Assembly (NCBI RefSeq): GCF_049554935.1
Contig: NZ_CP186926.1
Coordinates: forward strand, 352,001-416,000
From: Methanocaldococcus indicus
GTDB taxonomy: Archaea; AGJL01; Methanococci; Methanococcales; Methanocaldococcaceae
DNA length: 64,000 nt
Reading direction: 5' to 3'
The notes under the pieces are model-generated. The model ran no database searches. It saw only the letters and a program-made list of their open reading frames with translations, and was not told the origin of the DNA. Both the position numbers and the translations under genes were made by a program. Shown piece after piece: positions 58,834 through 64,000 of this stretch. Each line of letters starts with the position of its first letter. Within the stretch, counting starts at the first letter, position 1.

Positions 58834-59190
58834 ATGAATTACTTCCACAAAATTAACAGACTAAAAGAAGGAACTGATTTTGAGAAAAAACATACATCAT
58901 TTATTGATTGTAGAGATTCAGTAAAAGCAGATGAAATTTTTGAAGTAAGAATATATACAGAAGTTGAGCATCCTATGGAAGATAACCATTATATTCAGTG
59001 AGTAGAACTATTTATGAATGATATTTACTTAGGAAGGGCTGAATTTACCCAATTTTTAAAGCCAGAAGTTGTTTTTAAAGTAAAAGCTCCAAATGAAAGT
59101 CATAAAGGCAAATCTTTTAAATTAAGAGCTTTAATGAGATGTAACCTATATGGTGTTTGGGAATTTGAGAAAGAGGTTAAAATAGAATAA
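58834..59190 (+). pseudogene. sor: Superoxide reductase (neelaredoxin) pseudogene
   Basis: EKKHTS...HPMEDNHYIQ*VEL...CNLYG; in-frame TGA at 58999-59001 replaces the conserved Trp, and the His ligand of CNxHG is Tyr. Confidence 0.88.
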
Positions 59191-59267: not shown

Positions 59268-59426
59268 ATGGCAAAATATCAATGTATGTGTGGATGGATT
59301 TATGATGAAGATAAAGGAGAACCTTCTCAAAATATTCCACCTGGGACTAAATGGGAAGAACTACCAGATACTTTTAGATGTCCTCAATGTGGATTAGGGA
59401 AGAATGCTTTTAGAAAGATAGAATAG
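59268..59426 (+). CDS. rub: Rubredoxin (52 aa; not in ORF track)
   Basis: [52 protein letters not shown]; GGTGA RBS. Confidence 0.95.
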   Translation: MAKYQCMCGWIYDEDKGEPSQNIPPGTKWEELPDTFRCPQCGLGKNAFRKIE

Positions 59427-59446: not shown

Positions 59447-59722
59447 ATGATAACAACAAACCATCCATTAAGTGAAGCTTTAAGAGATATTCAAGAGTTT
59501 AAGTTAAGATTAGCTGAATACTTCAAAGATAAGGATGTTTTTCCAATTAAAAATAGAACAGAATTAGCTAATGCTTTACCATGTGGAATATCATTACCTT
59601 GTGGAGACATTGAAGCAGCAGAATTGGTTAAATTATTAACTGATAATGACTTTCCAATTAAAGATGTTGAAGATTTAGTTATGAAGTTAGCAAATAAATG
59701 CTTAATTGAAAAGAAAGAATAA
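59447..59722 (+). CDS. MTH865-family protein
   Basis: FPIKN..EL.NALP.G....C...A.ELVKLL...DFP. Confidence 0.8.
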
Positions 59723-59732
59723 AGGTGAAATT

Positions 59733-60413
59733 ATGTGTGAAGAAATGAAAGAATGCTGCAAAGTTGTTATAGGACAAAAATTCCCAGAAGTAGAGGTTAA
59801 GACAACTCATGGAGTTATAAAATTACCAGATTACTATGTAGAGAAAGGGAAATGGTTTGTATTATTTAGTCATCCAGCTGATTTCACTCCTGTTTGTACA
59901 ACTGAATTTGTAGGATTCCAAAAAAGATATGACCAATTTAGAGAGTTAAACTGTGAATTAATAGGTTTAAGTATAGACCAAGTATTTAGCCATATAAAAT
60001 GGGTAGAATGGATAAAAGAAAAGTTAGGAGTAGAGATTGAGTTCCCAATTATTGCTGATGATATGGGAGAATTGGCTAAAAAGTTAGGAATGGTATCTCC
60101 TTATAAAGGAACAAATACAGTAAGAGCTGTATTTATAGTTGATGATAAAGGAGTTATAAGAGCTATCATCTATTACCCACAAGAAATAGGTAGAAACTTA
60201 GATGAAATAGTAAGAGCTGTTAAAGCCCTACAAACCTCTGACAAGTATGGTGTAGCTACACCTGCAAATTGGCCAGAAAATGATTTATTAGGTGATAAGG
60301 TTATTATACCACCAGCTTCAAGTATTGAAGAGAAAAAGCAAAGAGAAGAAGCTTGTAAAAAAGGAGAAATAGAATGTTATGACTGGTGGTTCTGCTATAA
60401 AAAATTAGAATAA
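59733..60413 (+). CDS. Peroxiredoxin (archaeal Prx6/AhpC type)
   Basis: [26 protein letters not shown]. Confidence 0.95.
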
Positions 60414-60452: not shown

Positions 60453-60683
60453 ATGGGCATGGTTGAGTTGAATATAGTTAGTAAAAAAGAAGAAAAAAAG
60501 GAATTAAAAAAATACAGATGTAGAGTTTGTGGATGGATTTATGACCCTGAAAAAGGAGAGCCTTCCCAAAATATTCCACCTGGGACTCCTTTTGAGGAAT
60601 TGCCAGATAGTTTTAGATATAGTTTTAGATGTCCTGTTTGTAGAGGAAATGTAACAAAAGAATACTTTGAGCCAGTTGAGTAG
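60453..60683 (+). CDS. rub: Rubredoxin with a 4-aa internal duplication
   Basis: [10 protein letters not shown]...PGT.FEELP...CPVC. Confidence 0.88.
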
Positions 60684-60951: not shown

Positions 60952-62121
60952 ATGATAAGAAAAATAAAAGAGAATATTTATTTTGTTGGAGCAATAGATT
61001 GGGATGTTAGGAATTTTCATGGATACAATACAGACAATGGGACAACATACAACTCTTATTTAATTTTAGATGAAAAAATAACTTTAATTGATACTGTTAA
61101 AGACCATAAAGCTGATGAATTAATCAACAACATAAAAAAATTGGTTAATCCTAATGATATTGATTATATTGTTATAAATCATGTTGAAAAAGACCACTCT
61201 GGGGCACTTCCTGAGTTAATGAAAATAACTAATGCAAAGATAGTAACAAATGATAAAGGAAAGGAACATTTAGAAGAGCATTACAACACTGAGGGTTGGG
61301 AGTTTTTAGTTGTTGATGATGAAGAAGAGTTAAATATTGGTAAAAGAACTTTGAAATTCTTTAAAACTCCTATGTTACACTGGCCTGAAAATATGGTTAC
61401 TTATTTAATTGAAGATAAAATTTTATTCTCAAATGATGCCTTTGGACAACATTATGCATCATCTCAAAGATTTGACTATGAAGTTAGAGGAGATATATTT
61501 CTCTATGCAAGAGAATACTTTGCAAATATTTTAATGCCTTACAAATTCTTAATAAACAATGTAATTGAAAAGCTCACTAAGTTAGAGATTGAGTATATAG
61601 CTCCTTCTCATGGAATTATCTGGAATAAATATATTGATGATATAATAAAGTATTATATTGATTGGGCTTCTGGAAAAGTTAGTAATAAGGCAGTAATTGT
61701 TTATGATACAATGTATAACTCAACTAAAAAAATGGCTTATGCTATTGCTGATGGATTAATAGAAGAAGGAGTGAATGTAAAAATATACAATTTAACTGAA
61801 ACTCCTGTAAGTAAGATTATATCTGAGATATTAACAGCCAAATATTTATTAGTTGGCTCACCTACCTTAAATAAAAACTTATATCCTGAAGTTGCTAAGT
61901 TTTTAGCATATATGGAAGGATTAAATCCAACAGGAAAAATAGCTGTTGCTTTTGGTTCTTATGGCTGGTATGAAGTAGCAACAGAGAAAATTAAAGAAGT
62001 ATTTAAAAGGTTAAATTATAAAATTGTAGATGATGATTGTTTAAAAGTTAAATTCTCTCCAAAAGAAGAAGATTTAAATAAATTATATGAATTTGGTAAG
62101 AATTTGGCTAAAATTGAATGA
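60952..62121 (+). CDS. fprA: FprA flavodiiron protein (F420H2 oxidase type)
   Basis: [30 protein letters not shown], flavodoxin domain TMYNST...FGSYGW. Confidence 0.93.
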
Positions 62122-62791: not shown

Positions 62792-62913
62792 TTTAATATA
62801 ATTATGAGTTATACGCAATCTATTATAAAATTTTTACTATGGGAATAATATATAAAACTTTATATATTATAAAGTTACCTATAATACTCAGAAAACTTTG
62901 GAGGTGATAATAG

Positions 62914-63078
62914 ATGTGTGCCCCAATAGCAGTAACTGCTGGATTAGGAGCTCCAACATTAAGTGCAGTATTACCACAAATAATGGGAATGGTTTTTTTA
63001 ACAATTACTGGAGTATGGGCTATAGTTTCAGCAAAAGTTTCAACTTCAGTAAAATCTGAAGCAGTAGCTACTCAATAA
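62914..63078 (+). CDS. 54-aa hydrophobic MCAP peptide 1 (not in ORF track)
   Basis: MCAPIAVTAGLGAPTLSAVLPQIMGMVFLTITGVWAIVSAKVSTSVKSEAVATQ; strong RBS GGAGGTGAT. Confidence 0.85.
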   Translation: MCAPIAVTAGLGAPTLSAVLPQIMGMVFLTITGVWAIVSAKVSTSVKSEAVATQ

Positions 63079-63120
63079 ATAGCCTTAATTAATTATAAAA
63101 TTTTTTGGAGGTGATAATAG

Positions 63121-63276
63121 ATGTGTGCTCCAGTATCTGCAACAATAGCAGTTAGTTCTTCAACATTATTAACAGCATTTACCTTAGCTCAAGTTTTAGG
63201 AATAGCAGCTATTATAGGAGCTGTTGGATTCATATTTAAAGATGTTTTAAACTCAAAAGTTGCAAATAGATCATAA
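63121..63276 (+). CDS. 51-aa hydrophobic MCAP peptide 2 (not in ORF track)
   Basis: MCAPVSATIAVSSSTLLTAFTLAQVLGIAAIIGAVGFIFKDVLNSKVANRS; same RBS context as peptide 1. Confidence 0.85.
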   Translation: MCAPVSATIAVSSSTLLTAFTLAQVLGIAAIIGAVGFIFKDVLNSKVANRS

Positions 63277-63277
63277 A

Positions 63278-63306
63278 TTTATTTATTATTATTTTTTTAT
63301 TTTTTT
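63278..63306 (+). terminator. Possible oligo-dT terminator between the peptides and the radical SAM gene
   Basis: Two T runs (TTTTTT-A-TTTTTTT) just after the peptide 2 stop. Confidence 0.4.
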
Positions 63307-63318
63307 GAGGTAATACCT

Positions 63319-64000
63319 ATGATATCATTTTTAATAAAACCTAAGATATTACAAGTAGAGGTTACTAATGACTGTAACTGTAATTGTGACATATGTTTAA
63401 GGAATTATTGGAAGAGACCAAAAGGTAGTATAAGTGTTGAAGACTTCAAAAAATTGCCTATAAAAGATTTCAAAGAAGTAGCTTTACATGGTTGGGGAGA
63501 GAGTTTTTTACATCCAAATTTGTTTGAAATGGTAAAGTATGTTAAAAGTTTAGGAGTAAAAGCAAGTTTATGTACAAATGGTACATTGTTAGATGAGAGA
63601 TTAGACGAAGTACTTAATAGTGGTTTAGATGAGATTGCATTTGGAATATTTTCCTTAAAAGGTAAAGAAAAAGTAATATCTAATATAGAAATGCTCATAA
63701 ATGAAAAAGAAAAAAAAGGACTGAAATTAGATACCTACATAGATATAACAATGTTTAGGAGAAATTTAGAAGAGATTCCAGAAATTGTAGAAGCTGGTAT
63801 TAATCTTGGAGTAGATGGAATAGTTCTTCATAGGTTATTTGATTTGTATATAGAAGAGAAATATGGTTTATCCTCAAAAGAGGAAAAGAAATTCATAAAT
63901 GATTTAATAGAGAAATATGGAAAAAAAATAAGAATATATCCTCCTTTACCTCACACAACACCATGTAGAATACTATTAAATTGTATGTTTGTAAGATGGG
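63319..64000 (+). CDS. Radical SAM protein, probably with SPASM/twitch domain; runs off the window
   Basis: MISFLIKPKILQVEVTNDCNCNCDICLRNYW (CxxxCxxC), LHGWGESFLHP, CTNGTLL, ending PCRILLNCMFVRW; GAGGT RBS. Confidence 0.9.
   Translation, partial: MISFLIKPKILQVEVTNDCNCNCDICLRNYWKRPKGSISVEDFKKLPIKDFKEVALHGWGESFLHPNLFEMVKYVKSLGVKASLCTNGTLLDERLDEVLNSGLDEIAFGIFSLKGKEKVISNIEMLINEKEKKGLKLDTYIDITMFRRNLEEIPEIVEAGINLGVDGIVLHRLFDLYIEEKYGLSSKEEKKFINDLIEKYGKKIRIYPPLPHTTPCRILLNCMFVRW

What the first reader, a model, noticed from the sequence alone, without database searches (positions are those of the whole stretch)
62897..64000. Tandem MCAP peptides plus radical SAM/SPASM enzyme: candidate undescribed archaeal peptide-modification (RiPP-like) system
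Seen: two ORFs below the ORF-track cutoff (62914-63078, 54 aa; 63121-63276, 51 aa) both begin Met-Cys-Ala-Pro. Cys2 is their only cysteine. Each has an Ala/Ser/Thr-rich N-terminal half, one long hydrophobic helix and a short polar Lys-containing tail. A co-oriented radical SAM gene (CxxxCxxC, GWGE, TNG, and the start of a second Cys-containing region) begins 42 bp later. Known: SPASM-type radical SAM enzymes next to short Cys-containing ORFs often install thioether (sacti/ranthipeptide) or other crosslinks. Inference: these are paralogous precursors whose MCAP terminus is the recognition or modification site, giving membrane-active or membrane-anchored modified peptides. I do not recognise this as a described methanogen system. 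The locus is cut by the window edge.
Basis: partly seen in the sequence, partly recalled or inferred. Interest (0 to 1): 0.9.

Follow-up and report, generated by a model that had tools for sequence, protein, structure and literature searches.

The report
Conserved Met-Cys peptide / radical SAM cassette
Two tiny membrane peptides that begin Met-Cys-Ala-Pro sit beside a radical SAM enzyme, and this same gene set recurs in many anaerobic archaea and bacteria without a name, so it is probably an undescribed peptide-modification system.

Summary
Both small ORFs (62914-63078, 63121-63276) have strong Shine-Dalgarno sites and one Cys, at residue 2. A radical SAM gene starts 42 bp after the second.

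The pairing is not chance.
- In Methanococcales, the peptides and the orthologous enzyme occur in exactly the same 8 of 40 genomes.
- In 81 loci holding a relative of the enzyme, from archaea and bacteria, 74 carry one to three MCxP ORFs directly upstream on the same strand.
- 16 control loci carry none.

- A ~180-aa membrane protein overlaps the enzyme's 3' end in 62 of 81 loci. Its fold resembles ECF-transporter S components (a lead only).
- A membrane-anchored TPR protein and/or a secreted FmdE-domain protein lies nearby in 62 of 81 loci.
- Metal or metal-chelate uptake genes recur as neighbours.

The enzyme has no RRE. It has only four invariant C-terminal Cys, so it looks twitch-like rather than full SPASM. 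It scores far below the tungsten-maturase cut-off.

No Pfam or NCBIfam model, database name or searched paper describes the system.

Best reading: the enzyme modifies the Cys2 N-terminus of membrane-anchored peptides, in an envelope module possibly tied to trace-metal acquisition. The chemistry is untested.

The parts
62854..62868 (+). BRE/TATA-like promoter element (AAAACTTTATATATT), about 45-60 nt upstream of the pepA ATG
   Evidence: Read. The same AAAA(C/G)TTTATATA-like element is present upstream of pepA in 5 of 5 Methanococcales loci printed. That it acts as a promoter is inference.
62900..62907 (+). Shine-Dalgarno site GGAGGTGA of pepA
   Evidence: 16 of 16 orthologous peptide ORFs in 8 Methanococcales loci have (G)GAGGTGA 5-8 nt before the ATG.
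62914..63078 (+). pepA: 54-aa peptide MCAPIAVT... with a single Cys (Cys2), one hydrophobic helix and a polar tail
   Evidence: Orthologues lie upstream of the orthologous rSAM in 8 of 8 loci.
63107..63114 (+). Shine-Dalgarno site GGAGGTGA of pepB
63121..63276 (+). pepB: 51-aa peptide MCAPVSAT... with a single Cys (Cys2), one hydrophobic helix and a basic tail. It belongs to the enzyme-proximal peptide type found across phyla.
   Evidence: In alignment A6, M1, C2 and P4 are invariant in 41 sequences, but those rows were chosen from the MCxP pattern scan, so this holds by selection. An unrestricted listing of small ORFs shows the same start.
63277..63318 (+). T-rich spacer (two T7 runs) followed by a weak SD site (GAGGTAAT) for the rSAM gene
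   Evidence: T-runs follow pepB in 5 of 5 Methanococcales loci. A role as an archaeal oligo-T terminator or attenuator is inference.
63319..64000 (+). 5' 227 codons of a 274-aa radical SAM enzyme, cut by the window end. It continues to L002:2144, which would be window-equivalent 64143. It carries C19xxxC23xxC26, plus C216, C234, C269 and C272 for an auxiliary cluster.
   Evidence: Beyond the window: membrane protein at L002:2116-2688 (29-nt overlap with the rSAM) and TPR protein at L002:2747-4162.

Best explanation
This is one copy of a conserved, unnamed cassette found in both archaea and bacteria. Its core has three parts.
- One to three ~45-75-aa peptides that start Met-Cys-(Ala/Thr/Val/Ser)-Pro. 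Each has ~18 uncharged residues, one transmembrane helix and a Lys/Arg-rich tail.
- A minimal (~260-290 aa) radical SAM enzyme with one Cys4 auxiliary-cluster site and no RRE.
- A ~180-aa polytopic membrane protein that is translationally coupled to the enzyme.

Proposed mechanism (inferred, not shown):
1. The cytoplasmic radical SAM enzyme acts on the leaderless N-terminus of the peptides, at or next to the conserved Cys2.
2. The hydrophobic helix and the coupled membrane protein hold or present the substrate at the membrane.
3. The modified peptide ends up N-out/C-in.
4. Its modified Cys-bearing N-terminus then faces the same side as the TPR domain and the secreted FmdE-domain protein.
5. 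The assembly serves capture or hand-over of a trace metal or metal chelate to uptake systems.

Shown here: the genes, their conservation and their strict co-occurrence. Inferred: enzyme-substrate relation, topology and the metal link. Unknown: the chemistry. Candidates are a thioether, Cys oxidation to formylglycine, or epimerisation.
For: Co-occurrence:
- Full-length orthologues of the enzyme (65-72% identity) occur in 8 of 40 Methanococcales genomes, own included. In one of them, G026, the gene is in two pieces.
- The peptide profile hits exactly those 8 genomes, two hits each, all adjacent to the enzyme.
- Of 81 loci with a relative of the enzyme (80 plus the own locus), 74 have 1-3 MCxP ORFs directly upstream on the same strand. 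79 have a family peptide somewhere in the locus.
- Of 123 MCxP ORFs in 550 kb, only 4 look unrelated to the family.
- 16 loci around more distant rSAM paralogues have none in 53 kb.

Translation signals: (G)GAGGTGA sits before 16 of 16 Methanococcales peptide ORFs.

Topology: in 116 distinct peptides there are 31 K+R on the N-side of the hydrophobic core and 430 on the C-side.

Enzyme:
- PF04055 hit.
- CxxxCxxC and C216, C234, C269, C272 are invariant in 21 diverse homologues.
- The nearest solved relatives are twitch/SPASM enzymes, all remote: BlsE, GDGT-MAS, NifB, BtrN, SkfB, MoaA.

Membrane partner:
- Present in 62 of 81 loci.
- 9 of the 19 misses are contig ends and 1 is a run of N.
- Its start overlaps the enzyme's 3' end.
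- The ESM Atlas model of it aligns to ECF S components at TM 0.56-0.69. This is a lead only.

Outward-facing partners:
- TPR protein in 41 loci. It has a short basic N-terminus and one TM helix.
- FmdE-domain protein in 30 loci. It has a signal peptide plus a C-terminal anchor (archaea) or a lipobox-like Cys (bacteria).
- Either one is present in 62 of 81 loci.

Uptake genes as neighbours:
- DUF4198 + CbiM + CbiQ in L040, L092 and L105; CbiM + CbiQ in L061; DUF4198-cluster ORFs only in L093.
- FecCD in L064 and L090.
- Peripla_BP_2 in L064 and L086.
- A TonB-dependent receptor in L085.
- ExbB/ExbD/TonB in L099.
- SBP_bac_5 in L079.

Against: - No modification has been observed. Adjacency does not prove an enzyme-substrate relation.
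- No RRE or other peptide-binding domain was detected.
- The best curated matches of the enzyme are predicted metalloenzyme maturases, not RiPP maturases, though far below cut-off.
- The metal link rests on neighbours in about 11 of 81 loci. I annotated only selected neighbours.
- The own genome has no FmdE domain at all and no uptake genes beside the cassette.
- The membrane protein has no invariant His or Cys.
- It shows no sequence similarity to CbiM, to any PDB chain or to any Pfam family.
- Nine loci with enough sequence lack the membrane protein.
- No riboswitch was found in 12 bacterial loci.
- Loci are related to one another, and L028-L031 probably repeat genomes already counted. The counts therefore overstate independence.
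Confidence: 0.5

Rival explanations
1. The cassette encodes a one- or two-peptide antimicrobial in the manner of the sactibiotics. The peptides are bacteriocin-like precursors modified by the radical SAM enzyme. The small membrane protein gives the producer immunity.
For: - Two paralogous hydrophobic peptides lie beside an rSAM and a small polytopic membrane protein.
- The distribution within Methanococcales is patchy and accessory: 8 of 40 genomes, with different flanking genes.
- ABC-type ATPases lie near the cassette in 5 loci.
Against: - There is no leader peptide. The conserved motif starts at residue 1.
- No protease or dedicated exporter is a conserved neighbour.
- The N-terminal octapeptide is nearly constant from Methanococcales to Chloroflexota. 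That is unusual for fast-evolving antimicrobials.
- The basic C-tail and single TM helix suggest the peptide stays in the producer's membrane.
- The recurrent partners are TPR, FmdE and uptake genes.
Confidence: 0.12
2. The peptides are not substrates. They are small structural subunits of a membrane complex formed with the S-component-like protein. The radical SAM enzyme acts on a small molecule or cofactor that this complex carries or imports.
For: - The enzyme lacks an RRE.
- Its nearest curated and solved relatives act on small molecules or cofactors: BlsE, BtrN, MoaA, NifB, and the NirJ/Ahb and tungsten-maturase models.
- The membrane partner's predicted fold resembles vitamin or metal S components.
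- The cassette neighbours transport genes.
Against: - The one feature shared by every peptide found is Met-Cys-x-Pro at the extreme N-terminus. That looks more like a reactive or recognition site than a packing surface.
- The peptide-enzyme adjacency (74 of 81 loci) is tighter than the peptide-membrane protein adjacency (62 of 81). Nine loci keep peptide and enzyme without the membrane protein.
Confidence: 0.22
3. The enzyme is a tungsten or molybdenum oxidoreductase maturase (TIGR04317-like), and the small ORFs are incidental.
For: TIGR04317 is the best NCBIfam hit (E 9.7e-34, residues 8-270). FmdE-domain proteins are named after a Mo/W formylmethanofuran dehydrogenase operon, and they are frequent neighbours.
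Against: - The score is 117 bits against a cut-off of 380.
- No AOR-type or other oxidoreductase cluster recurs in 81 loci. The four most widespread ORF clusters are the rSAM, the membrane protein, TPR and secreted FmdE.
- The small ORFs are conserved across phyla.
- The FmdE proteins here carry signal peptides, so they are extracytoplasmic.
Confidence: 0.04
4. The small ORFs are chance open frames in AT-rich intergenic DNA.
For: They are short, fall below usual gene-calling thresholds and have no database family.
Against: Evidence:
- strong SD sites;
- conservation across two domains of life;
- only 3 such ORFs in the whole genome;
- none in the control loci;
- pN/pS below 1.
Confidence: 0.01

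Closest known systems
Radical SAM/SPASM-twitch peptide maturases of RiPPs (sactipeptides and ranthipeptides, e.g. AlbA, SkfB, CteB; names recalled)
   Same: A radical SAM enzyme with a C-terminal Cys-rich auxiliary-cluster region is encoded beside short Cys-containing peptides. SkfB is among the solved relatives, with an alignment over profile positions 13-256. AlbA and StsB models hit weakly.
   Different: - No leader peptide. The conserved Cys is residue 2, and it is the only Cys in 84 of 116 peptides.
- No RRE.
- Only 4 invariant C-terminal Cys.
- The peptide carries a transmembrane helix and a basic tail.
- The partners are an S-component-like membrane protein, a TPR protein and a secreted FmdE protein, not a protease or exporter.
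CrpABC of Methanococcus voltae (radical SAM CrpC installs ranthionine crosslinks in the Cys-rich protein CrpA; PMC13692751, abstract and section 8 read)
   Same: It is a radical SAM enzyme of a methanogen (Methanococcales) that modifies Cys in a neighbouring gene product. It has a possible link to metal or sulfur acquisition: the paper notes upregulation on pyrite.
   Different: Per the paper, CrpC belongs to TIGR04463, has an RRE and binds three [4Fe-4S] clusters. Its substrate is a large protein with a 47-residue leader-like N-terminus and ten repeats of a Cys motif. Here the enzyme is 274 aa without an RRE, and the substrates are ~50-aa single-Cys membrane peptides.
TIGR04317, tungsten cofactor oxidoreductase radical SAM maturase (NCBIfam)
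   Same: It is the best curated HMM hit and covers nearly the whole protein.
   Different: The score is 117 bits against a cut-off of 380. No oxidoreductase partner recurs in the neighbourhoods.
Anaerobic sulfatase-maturing enzymes (anSME) and BtrN, the radical SAM dehydrogenases (properties recalled)
   Same: - The target-like motif Cys-x-Pro resembles the start of the sulfatase motif C/S-x-P/A-x-R.
- BtrN is a similar-sized twitch enzyme with one Cys4 auxiliary cluster, and it is among the solved relatives.
- The Cys spacing here is C-x17-C...C-x2-C.
   Different: - The Arg at +4 of the sulfatase motif is absent. Position 6 is S, A, Y or T.
- anSMEs carry a 7-Cys SPASM domain (recalled).
- The match to BtrN covers only the N-terminal ~100 residues.
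- Formylglycine formation here is a hypothesis only.
CbiM/NikM-type ECF S components, whose extra N-terminal helix and N-terminal Met-His bind the metal (structure recalled), and solitary S components such as BtuM (recalled)
   Same: - The membrane partner's predicted fold aligns with ECF S components.
- The peptide is an N-out single helix with a conserved extreme N-terminus.
- CbiM genes starting MHIPDG or MVHISDG lie beside the cassette in 4 loci.
- Peptide plus membrane protein would have the helix count of CbiM.
   Different: - No sequence similarity to CbiM (hhalign probability 0.2).
- No Pfam or PDB sequence hit.
- No fused form was found among the homologues inspected.
- No invariant His or Cys in the membrane protein.

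Membership tests
Radical SAM superfamily (PF04055) | CxxxCxxC cluster motif and a Pfam hit above the cut-off | tested here: met
   PF04055 scores 44.6 bits against a 29.5-bit cut-off. C19, C23 and C26 are invariant in 6 orthologues and in 21 diverse homologues.
SPASM domain (PF13186; two auxiliary clusters) | Seven-Cys motif CX9-15GX4C...CX2CX5CX3C...C (motif recalled) and a PF13186 hit | tested here: not met
   The window's protein has no PF13186 hit at E <= 0.1. Only C216, C234, C269 and C272 are invariant in the C-terminal part. Many more distant homologues do carry a precomputed PF13186 hit. The family is therefore SPASM-related, but this member looks twitch-like, with one cluster. Cluster number needs spectroscopy.
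TIGR04317 tungsten cofactor oxidoreductase rSAM maturase | Score at or above the curated cut-off of 380 bits | tested here: not met
   117 bits.
TIGR04317 tungsten cofactor oxidoreductase rSAM maturase | Adjacent tungsten (AOR-type) oxidoreductase (context recalled) | tested here: not met
   No such ORF cluster recurs in the 81 loci. The most widespread clusters are the rSAM (77 loci), the membrane protein (62), TPR (41) and secreted FmdE (30). Not every neighbour was annotated.
RRE-dependent RiPP maturases | N-terminal RiPP recognition element (PqqD-like domain) | tested here: not met
   Radical_SAM is the only Pfam family above its cut-off. The cluster motif starts at residue 19, which leaves no room for an N-terminal domain.
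Sactipeptide/ranthipeptide precursors | Leader peptide followed by a core whose Cys residues form thioethers | tested here: not met
   The conserved Cys is residue 2 of the primary translation product. It is the only Cys in 84 of 116 distinct peptides. Whether a thioether forms cannot be tested with these tools.
anSME substrates (formylglycine motif) | C/S-x-P/A-x-R (motif recalled) | tested here: not met
   C-x-P is present in all peptides collected, but that holds by selection. It is seen independently. Position 6 is S (75), A (18), Y (14), T (8) or E (1) in 116 peptides, and never R.
ECF transporter S components (membrane partner) | Six-helix S-component fold; membership in PF12822, PF09819, PF07155 or related families | tested here: inconclusive
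   The Atlas's own model (pTM 0.79) aligns to S-component clusters at TM 0.56-0.69, and the tool itself says 'name no family'. No Pfam hit for the window's protein. Only 2 of 40 homologues touch PF09819, with best E 0.66. No PDB sequence hit. My own structure prediction and fold search were not possible.
CrpABC-type system (TIGR04463) | RRE plus full SPASM enzyme with three clusters; large Cys-rich repeat protein as substrate (from PMC13692751) | tested here: not met
   TIGR04463 is not among the 25 best NCBIfam hits shown, out of 34 found. There is no RRE. The substrates are ~50-aa single-Cys peptides.

The most novel reading that the evidence does not exclude
The peptide and the S-component-like membrane protein together form a split analogue of CbiM/NikM. 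The peptide supplies the outward-pointing extra helix and an N-terminal 'hook'. In that hook, Cys2 is made or tuned by the radical SAM enzyme, and its thiolate, with the N-terminal amine, captures a soft trace metal (Ni, Co or similar) or a metal chelate at the cell surface. The outward-facing TPR and FmdE-domain proteins deliver or receive the metal. This would be a ribosomally made, enzyme-modified, membrane-anchored metal-capture site, shared by hydrothermal and sediment anaerobes of both prokaryotic domains.
Probability: 0.15. Interest if true: 0.9.

Novelty: new variant of a known kind. Interest (0 to 1): 0.72.

Why it matters
Radical SAM enzymes paired with short peptides are a known kind of system. 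This one breaks several of the usual rules.
- There is no leader and no RRE.
- The conserved site is the very first residues of the peptide.
- The substrate is itself a membrane protein.
- The fixed partners are an S-component-like membrane protein and outward-facing TPR and FmdE proteins.

The cassette spans Methanococcales, Archaeoglobi, Thermoproteota, ANME-1, Methanosarcinales, Altiarchaeota, Desulfobacteraceae, Dehalococcoidia and others. Every database name is 'hypothetical protein' or a generic 'radical SAM protein'.

If the enzyme does modify Cys2, this defines a new substrate-recognition mode and possibly new chemistry. It would also assign a function to a set of genes common in methane-cycling and hydrothermal anaerobes. 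If the metal link holds, it would be a new route of trace-metal acquisition in organisms whose energy metabolism depends on Ni, Co, Fe and W.

Tried and rejected
No model of my own and no fold search could be made.
- Complex prediction of membrane protein with peptide: the machine was busy three times and the tool was then declared unavailable. Nothing was folded.

**Searches that found nothing**
- Sequencing runs: no RNA holder was listed for window 62800-64000.
- Profile-profile comparison of the membrane protein with neighbouring CbiM proteins gave no similarity.
- The membrane-protein profile against PDB sequences gave 0 hits at E <= 10.
- Pfam on 40 homologues of the membrane protein gave only scattered sub-threshold hits.
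- The ESM Atlas gave no usable hit for pepB and holds no model of it.
- Rfam on 12 bacterial loci at gathering threshold, and on 8 of those 12 at E <= 0.5, found no riboswitch. It found only one tRNA and sub-threshold noise.
- Search for peptide-membrane protein fusions: none appears among the 120 listed homologues, all 143-210 aa. None appears among 6 of the 36 representatives, chosen for their longer length or offset match and read in full.

**Literature**
Six full-text searches found no description of this cassette.
- PMC4158269: I read passages only. They mention radical SAM and TPR arCOGs in archaeal 'dark matter' islands, but not this system.
- PMC13692751: I read the abstract and section 8. 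It describes a different system.
- Supplementary files were not consulted. Supplements of these two papers, for example lists of rSAM-adjacent proteins, might mention the genes.

**Readings rejected**
- Chance ORFs.
- A tungsten-enzyme maturase.
See the rival explanations.

**The sigma-70-type promoter/terminator scan** does not apply to an archaeon, so I did not use it.
Full report
**1. Observation**

The window ends in three co-oriented genes.
- pepA: 62914-63078, 54 aa, begins MCAPIAV.
- pepB: 63121-63276, 51 aa, begins MCAPVSA.
- A radical SAM ORF starts at 63319, 42 bp after pepB, and runs off the window.

Each peptide has one Cys, at residue 2. After it come an uncharged Ala/Ser/Thr/Gly-rich stretch, one hydrophobic helix and a polar tail. 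Both peptide genes are preceded by the same leader, with GGAGGTGA 6 nt before the ATG.

The window is G000:C1:352001-416000. Reading on in the genome gives these genes:
- The enzyme is 274 aa.
- A 190-aa membrane protein starts 29 nt before the enzyme's stop codon.
- A 471-aa protein follows, with one N-terminal TM helix and TPR repeats.
- Further downstream lie an ArsR-like regulator, an HAE3/MMPL-type transporter and a CARDB/NEW3 surface protein. These do not recur elsewhere, so I do not count them as part of the system.

**2. Is the pair real and tied to the enzyme?**

*Within Methanococcales.* Full-length orthologues of the enzyme (65-72% identity) occur in 8 of 40 genomes, own included, across two families. 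In one of them (G026) the gene is in two pieces.
- All eight loci show the same order: two MC-starting peptides, the enzyme, then the overlapping membrane protein.
- (G)GAGGTGA precedes 16 of 16 peptide ORFs.
- A profile of the peptides, searched in six frames, hits exactly the same 8 of 40 genomes, two hits each, and none of the other 32.
- The whole own genome holds only three ATG-started MCxP ORFs of 35-90 aa, two of them this pair.
- pN/pS is below 1 in all 20 pairwise comparisons, range 0.09-0.95.

*Beyond the order.* The enzyme has 799 relatives at E <= 1e-5 among the candidates scored. They are ~260-290 aa long and carry only generic names.

A scan of one genome per species returned 120 confirmed relatives, of which the best 80 were kept. 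They come from:
- Methanococcales
- Thermoproteota and Desulfurococcales
- Archaeoglobaceae
- Methanophagales (ANME-1)
- Methanosarcinales
- Altiarchaeota
- Thermoplasmata
- Hadesarchaea
- Bathyarchaeia
- Desulfobacteraceae
- Dehalococcoidia
- Chloroflexota
- one Clostridia MAG

Counts over these 80 loci plus the own locus (81 in all):
- 74 of 81 have one (56), two (16) or three (2) MCxP ORFs of 35-90 aa directly upstream on the same strand.
- Four of the seven exceptions carry family peptides elsewhere in the locus. In one more (L101) the upstream peptide ORF runs into N. Only L072 and L076 show none.
- Of all 123 MCxP ORFs in these 550 kb, four look unrelated to the family.
- Sixteen loci around more distant radical SAM paralogues of Methanococcales contain none in 53 kb.

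Two caveats apply. The loci are related to one another. L028-L031 probably repeat genomes already counted.

**3. The peptides as a family**

Across 116 distinct peptides:
- Position 3 is A, T, V or S.
- Position 5 is mostly V or I.
- Position 6 is S, A, Y or T.
- Position 7 is mostly V.
- Position 8 is T, S or A.

M1, C2 and P4 are fixed in that count by the search pattern. An unrestricted listing of small upstream ORFs shows the same start.

The hydrophobic core sits at about residues 19-37. K+R number 31 on its N-side against 430 on its C-side. By the positive-inside rule this predicts N-out/C-in. That is an inference.

84 of the 116 have a single Cys. Most peptides from the bacterial loci add a GGC-x-G-x-C segment.

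Two types recur: an enzyme-proximal type like pepB, and a second type like pepA. The MCTPVYVTVK peptides, transcribed divergently in Thermoproteota and Archaeoglobaceae, belong to the second type.

Database relatives are all 'hypothetical protein' without a Pfam domain. Neither Pfam nor NCBIfam has a significant hit for either peptide; the only listing is a 14.7-bit hit (cut-off 148 bits) of pepA to an Na+/H+ antiporter model.

**4. The enzyme**

- Pfam gives only PF04055 above its cut-off.
- The best NCBIfam model is TIGR04317 (tungsten cofactor oxidoreductase rSAM maturase), at 117 bits against a cut-off of 380. Other SPASM/twitch models follow, all far below their cut-offs.
- In 21 diverse homologues the invariant Cys are C19, C23 and C26, plus C216, C234, C269 and C272. 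This is one Cys4 site with spacing C-x17-C...C-x2-C. It is not the seven-Cys SPASM motif (recalled), although many homologues carry a precomputed PF13186 hit.
- The cluster motif begins at residue 19, so there is no room for an RRE.
- Solved relatives are remote and belong to the twitch/SPASM group: BlsE, GDGT-MAS, NifB, BtrN, SkfB and MoaA.

**5. The partners**

*Membrane protein.*
- It is found in 62 of 81 loci and almost always overlaps the enzyme's 3' end.
- Of the 19 misses, nine are contig ends and one is a run of N. Nine are real and come mostly from ANME-1 or Methanosarcinales MAGs; several of these have two TPR genes instead.
- The family is small. Only 36 representatives reach E <= 1e-3 among 1.84 billion proteins.
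- It is unnamed.
- It has no Pfam hit, no PDB sequence hit and no hhalign similarity to the neighbouring CbiM proteins.
- The ESM Atlas's own model of it aligns to ECF-transporter S components at TM 0.56-0.69. I treat this as a lead.

*TPR protein.* Present in 41 loci. It has a short basic N-terminus and one TM helix, so the TPR domain should face outward (inference).

*FmdE-domain protein (PF02663).* Present in 30 loci. It has a signal peptide, plus a C-terminal TM/basic anchor in archaea or a lipobox-like Cys in bacteria.

One or the other of these two proteins is present in 62 of 81 loci, and in 26 of the 31 loci with at least 3.5 kb on both sides. The own genome has no FmdE domain. It has two CbiQ/EcfT genes elsewhere.

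*Uptake genes among the neighbours I annotated*:
- DUF4198 + CbiM + CbiQ in L040, L092 and L105; CbiM + CbiQ in L061; DUF4198-cluster ORFs only in L093
- FecCD in L064 and L090
- Peripla_BP_2 in L064 and L086
- a TonB-dependent receptor in L085
- ExbB/ExbD/TonB in L099
- SBP_bac_5 in L079

**6. How it most likely works**

*Shown:* a strictly co-occurring gene set, conserved in two domains of life.

*Inferred:* the cytoplasmic enzyme acts on the leaderless N-terminus of the peptides, at or near Cys2. Cys2 with Pro4 is the feature common to every peptide found. The translationally coupled membrane protein and the peptide's own helix keep the substrate at the membrane. The mature peptide then exposes its N-terminus on the outer face, beside the TPR and FmdE domains. 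The recurrent uptake neighbours suggest a role in acquiring a trace metal or metal chelate.

*Unknown:* the chemistry. A fully Cys-ligated single auxiliary site, and the likeness in size and Cys spacing to BtrN (recalled), would suit an oxidation such as Cys to formylglycine. A thioether or an epimerisation of the conserved Val/Ile residues is equally open.

Conserved BRE/TATA-like elements lie before pepA, and T-runs follow pepB. This fits high peptide and lower enzyme expression. That too is inference.

**7. Rivals**

- A bacteriocin-like reading fits the two-peptide layout and the patchy distribution. It does not fit the missing leader, protease and exporter, or the near-constant N-terminus across phyla.
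- The reading that the peptides are mere subunits, and that the enzyme acts on a small molecule, cannot be excluded. I give it about 0.2.
- The tungsten-maturase reading fails its cut-off and lacks its partner enzyme.
- Chance ORFs are excluded.

**8. Known or new**

No Pfam or NCBIfam model covers the peptides or the membrane protein. Names are generic. Six literature searches found no description.

The recently described CrpABC system of Methanococcus voltae is a different radical SAM-substrate pair.

I rate this a new variant of a known kind: radical SAM enzyme plus ribosomal peptide. Its architecture is unusual, with a leaderless N-terminal site, a membrane-anchored substrate, a minimal enzyme, and S-component-like and outward-facing partners.

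**9. Limits**

- No structure or complex prediction could be run.
- No expression data were found.
- Supplements of papers were not seen.
- Neighbour annotation was selective.
- The loci are not phylogenetically independent.

Noticed in passing
window 58834-59190 (+): A desulfoferrodoxin/superoxide-reductase-like gene is interrupted by one in-frame TGA at 58999-59001 (...NHYIQ*VELF...). Both halves hit PF01880. I did not resolve whether this is a pseudogene, a read-through or a sequencing error.
   Followed up: partly
L010 / L022 (G026:C1:66053-66882): In one Methanococcales genome the orthologous radical SAM gene is in two overlapping pieces, the second holding one TAG. Its two MC peptides and the membrane protein are intact. 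This may be a decaying copy of the cassette.
   Followed up: partly
L073, L087, L090, L091, L093, L094, L095 (Methanophagales/ANME-1, Methanosarcinales and one Halobacteria-labelled MAG): A cassette subtype carries MC(A/V)PVAVTAGG... peptides, many with a TTWAPML segment. It has one or two TPR genes, sometimes several peptide copies, and in most cases no adjacent membrane partner.
   Followed up: partly
L078-L080, L083, L085, L086, L088, L099, L102, L103 (bacterial loci; L097 and L098 lack the full segment): The bacterial peptides add a Gly-rich GGC-x-G-x-C segment after the MCxP start, giving 3-4 Cys. A lipobox-type FmdE protein (bacterial members of cluster C3) is encoded beside the cassette in most of these loci.
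   Followed up: no
L099:4932-8749: In a Clostridia MAG the cassette is followed directly by DUF3450, two MotA/ExbB, ExbD and TonB genes. This is a complete TonB energising unit.
   Followed up: no
window 59268-59426 and 60453-60683 (+), with 59706-60413 and 60952-62121: By eye only, with no family scan: two rubredoxin-like ORFs share ...C(G)[19 protein letters not shown].... They flank a peroxiredoxin-like ORF and a flavodiiron-like ORF. Together with the CMD-family and MTH865-like genes, this looks like an oxidative-stress gene cluster upstream of the cassette.
   Followed up: no
L002:7625-11374 (-), beyond the window: A 1249-aa ORF reads by eye like a family-B DNA polymerase with a large insertion. 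No tool was run on it.
   Followed up: no
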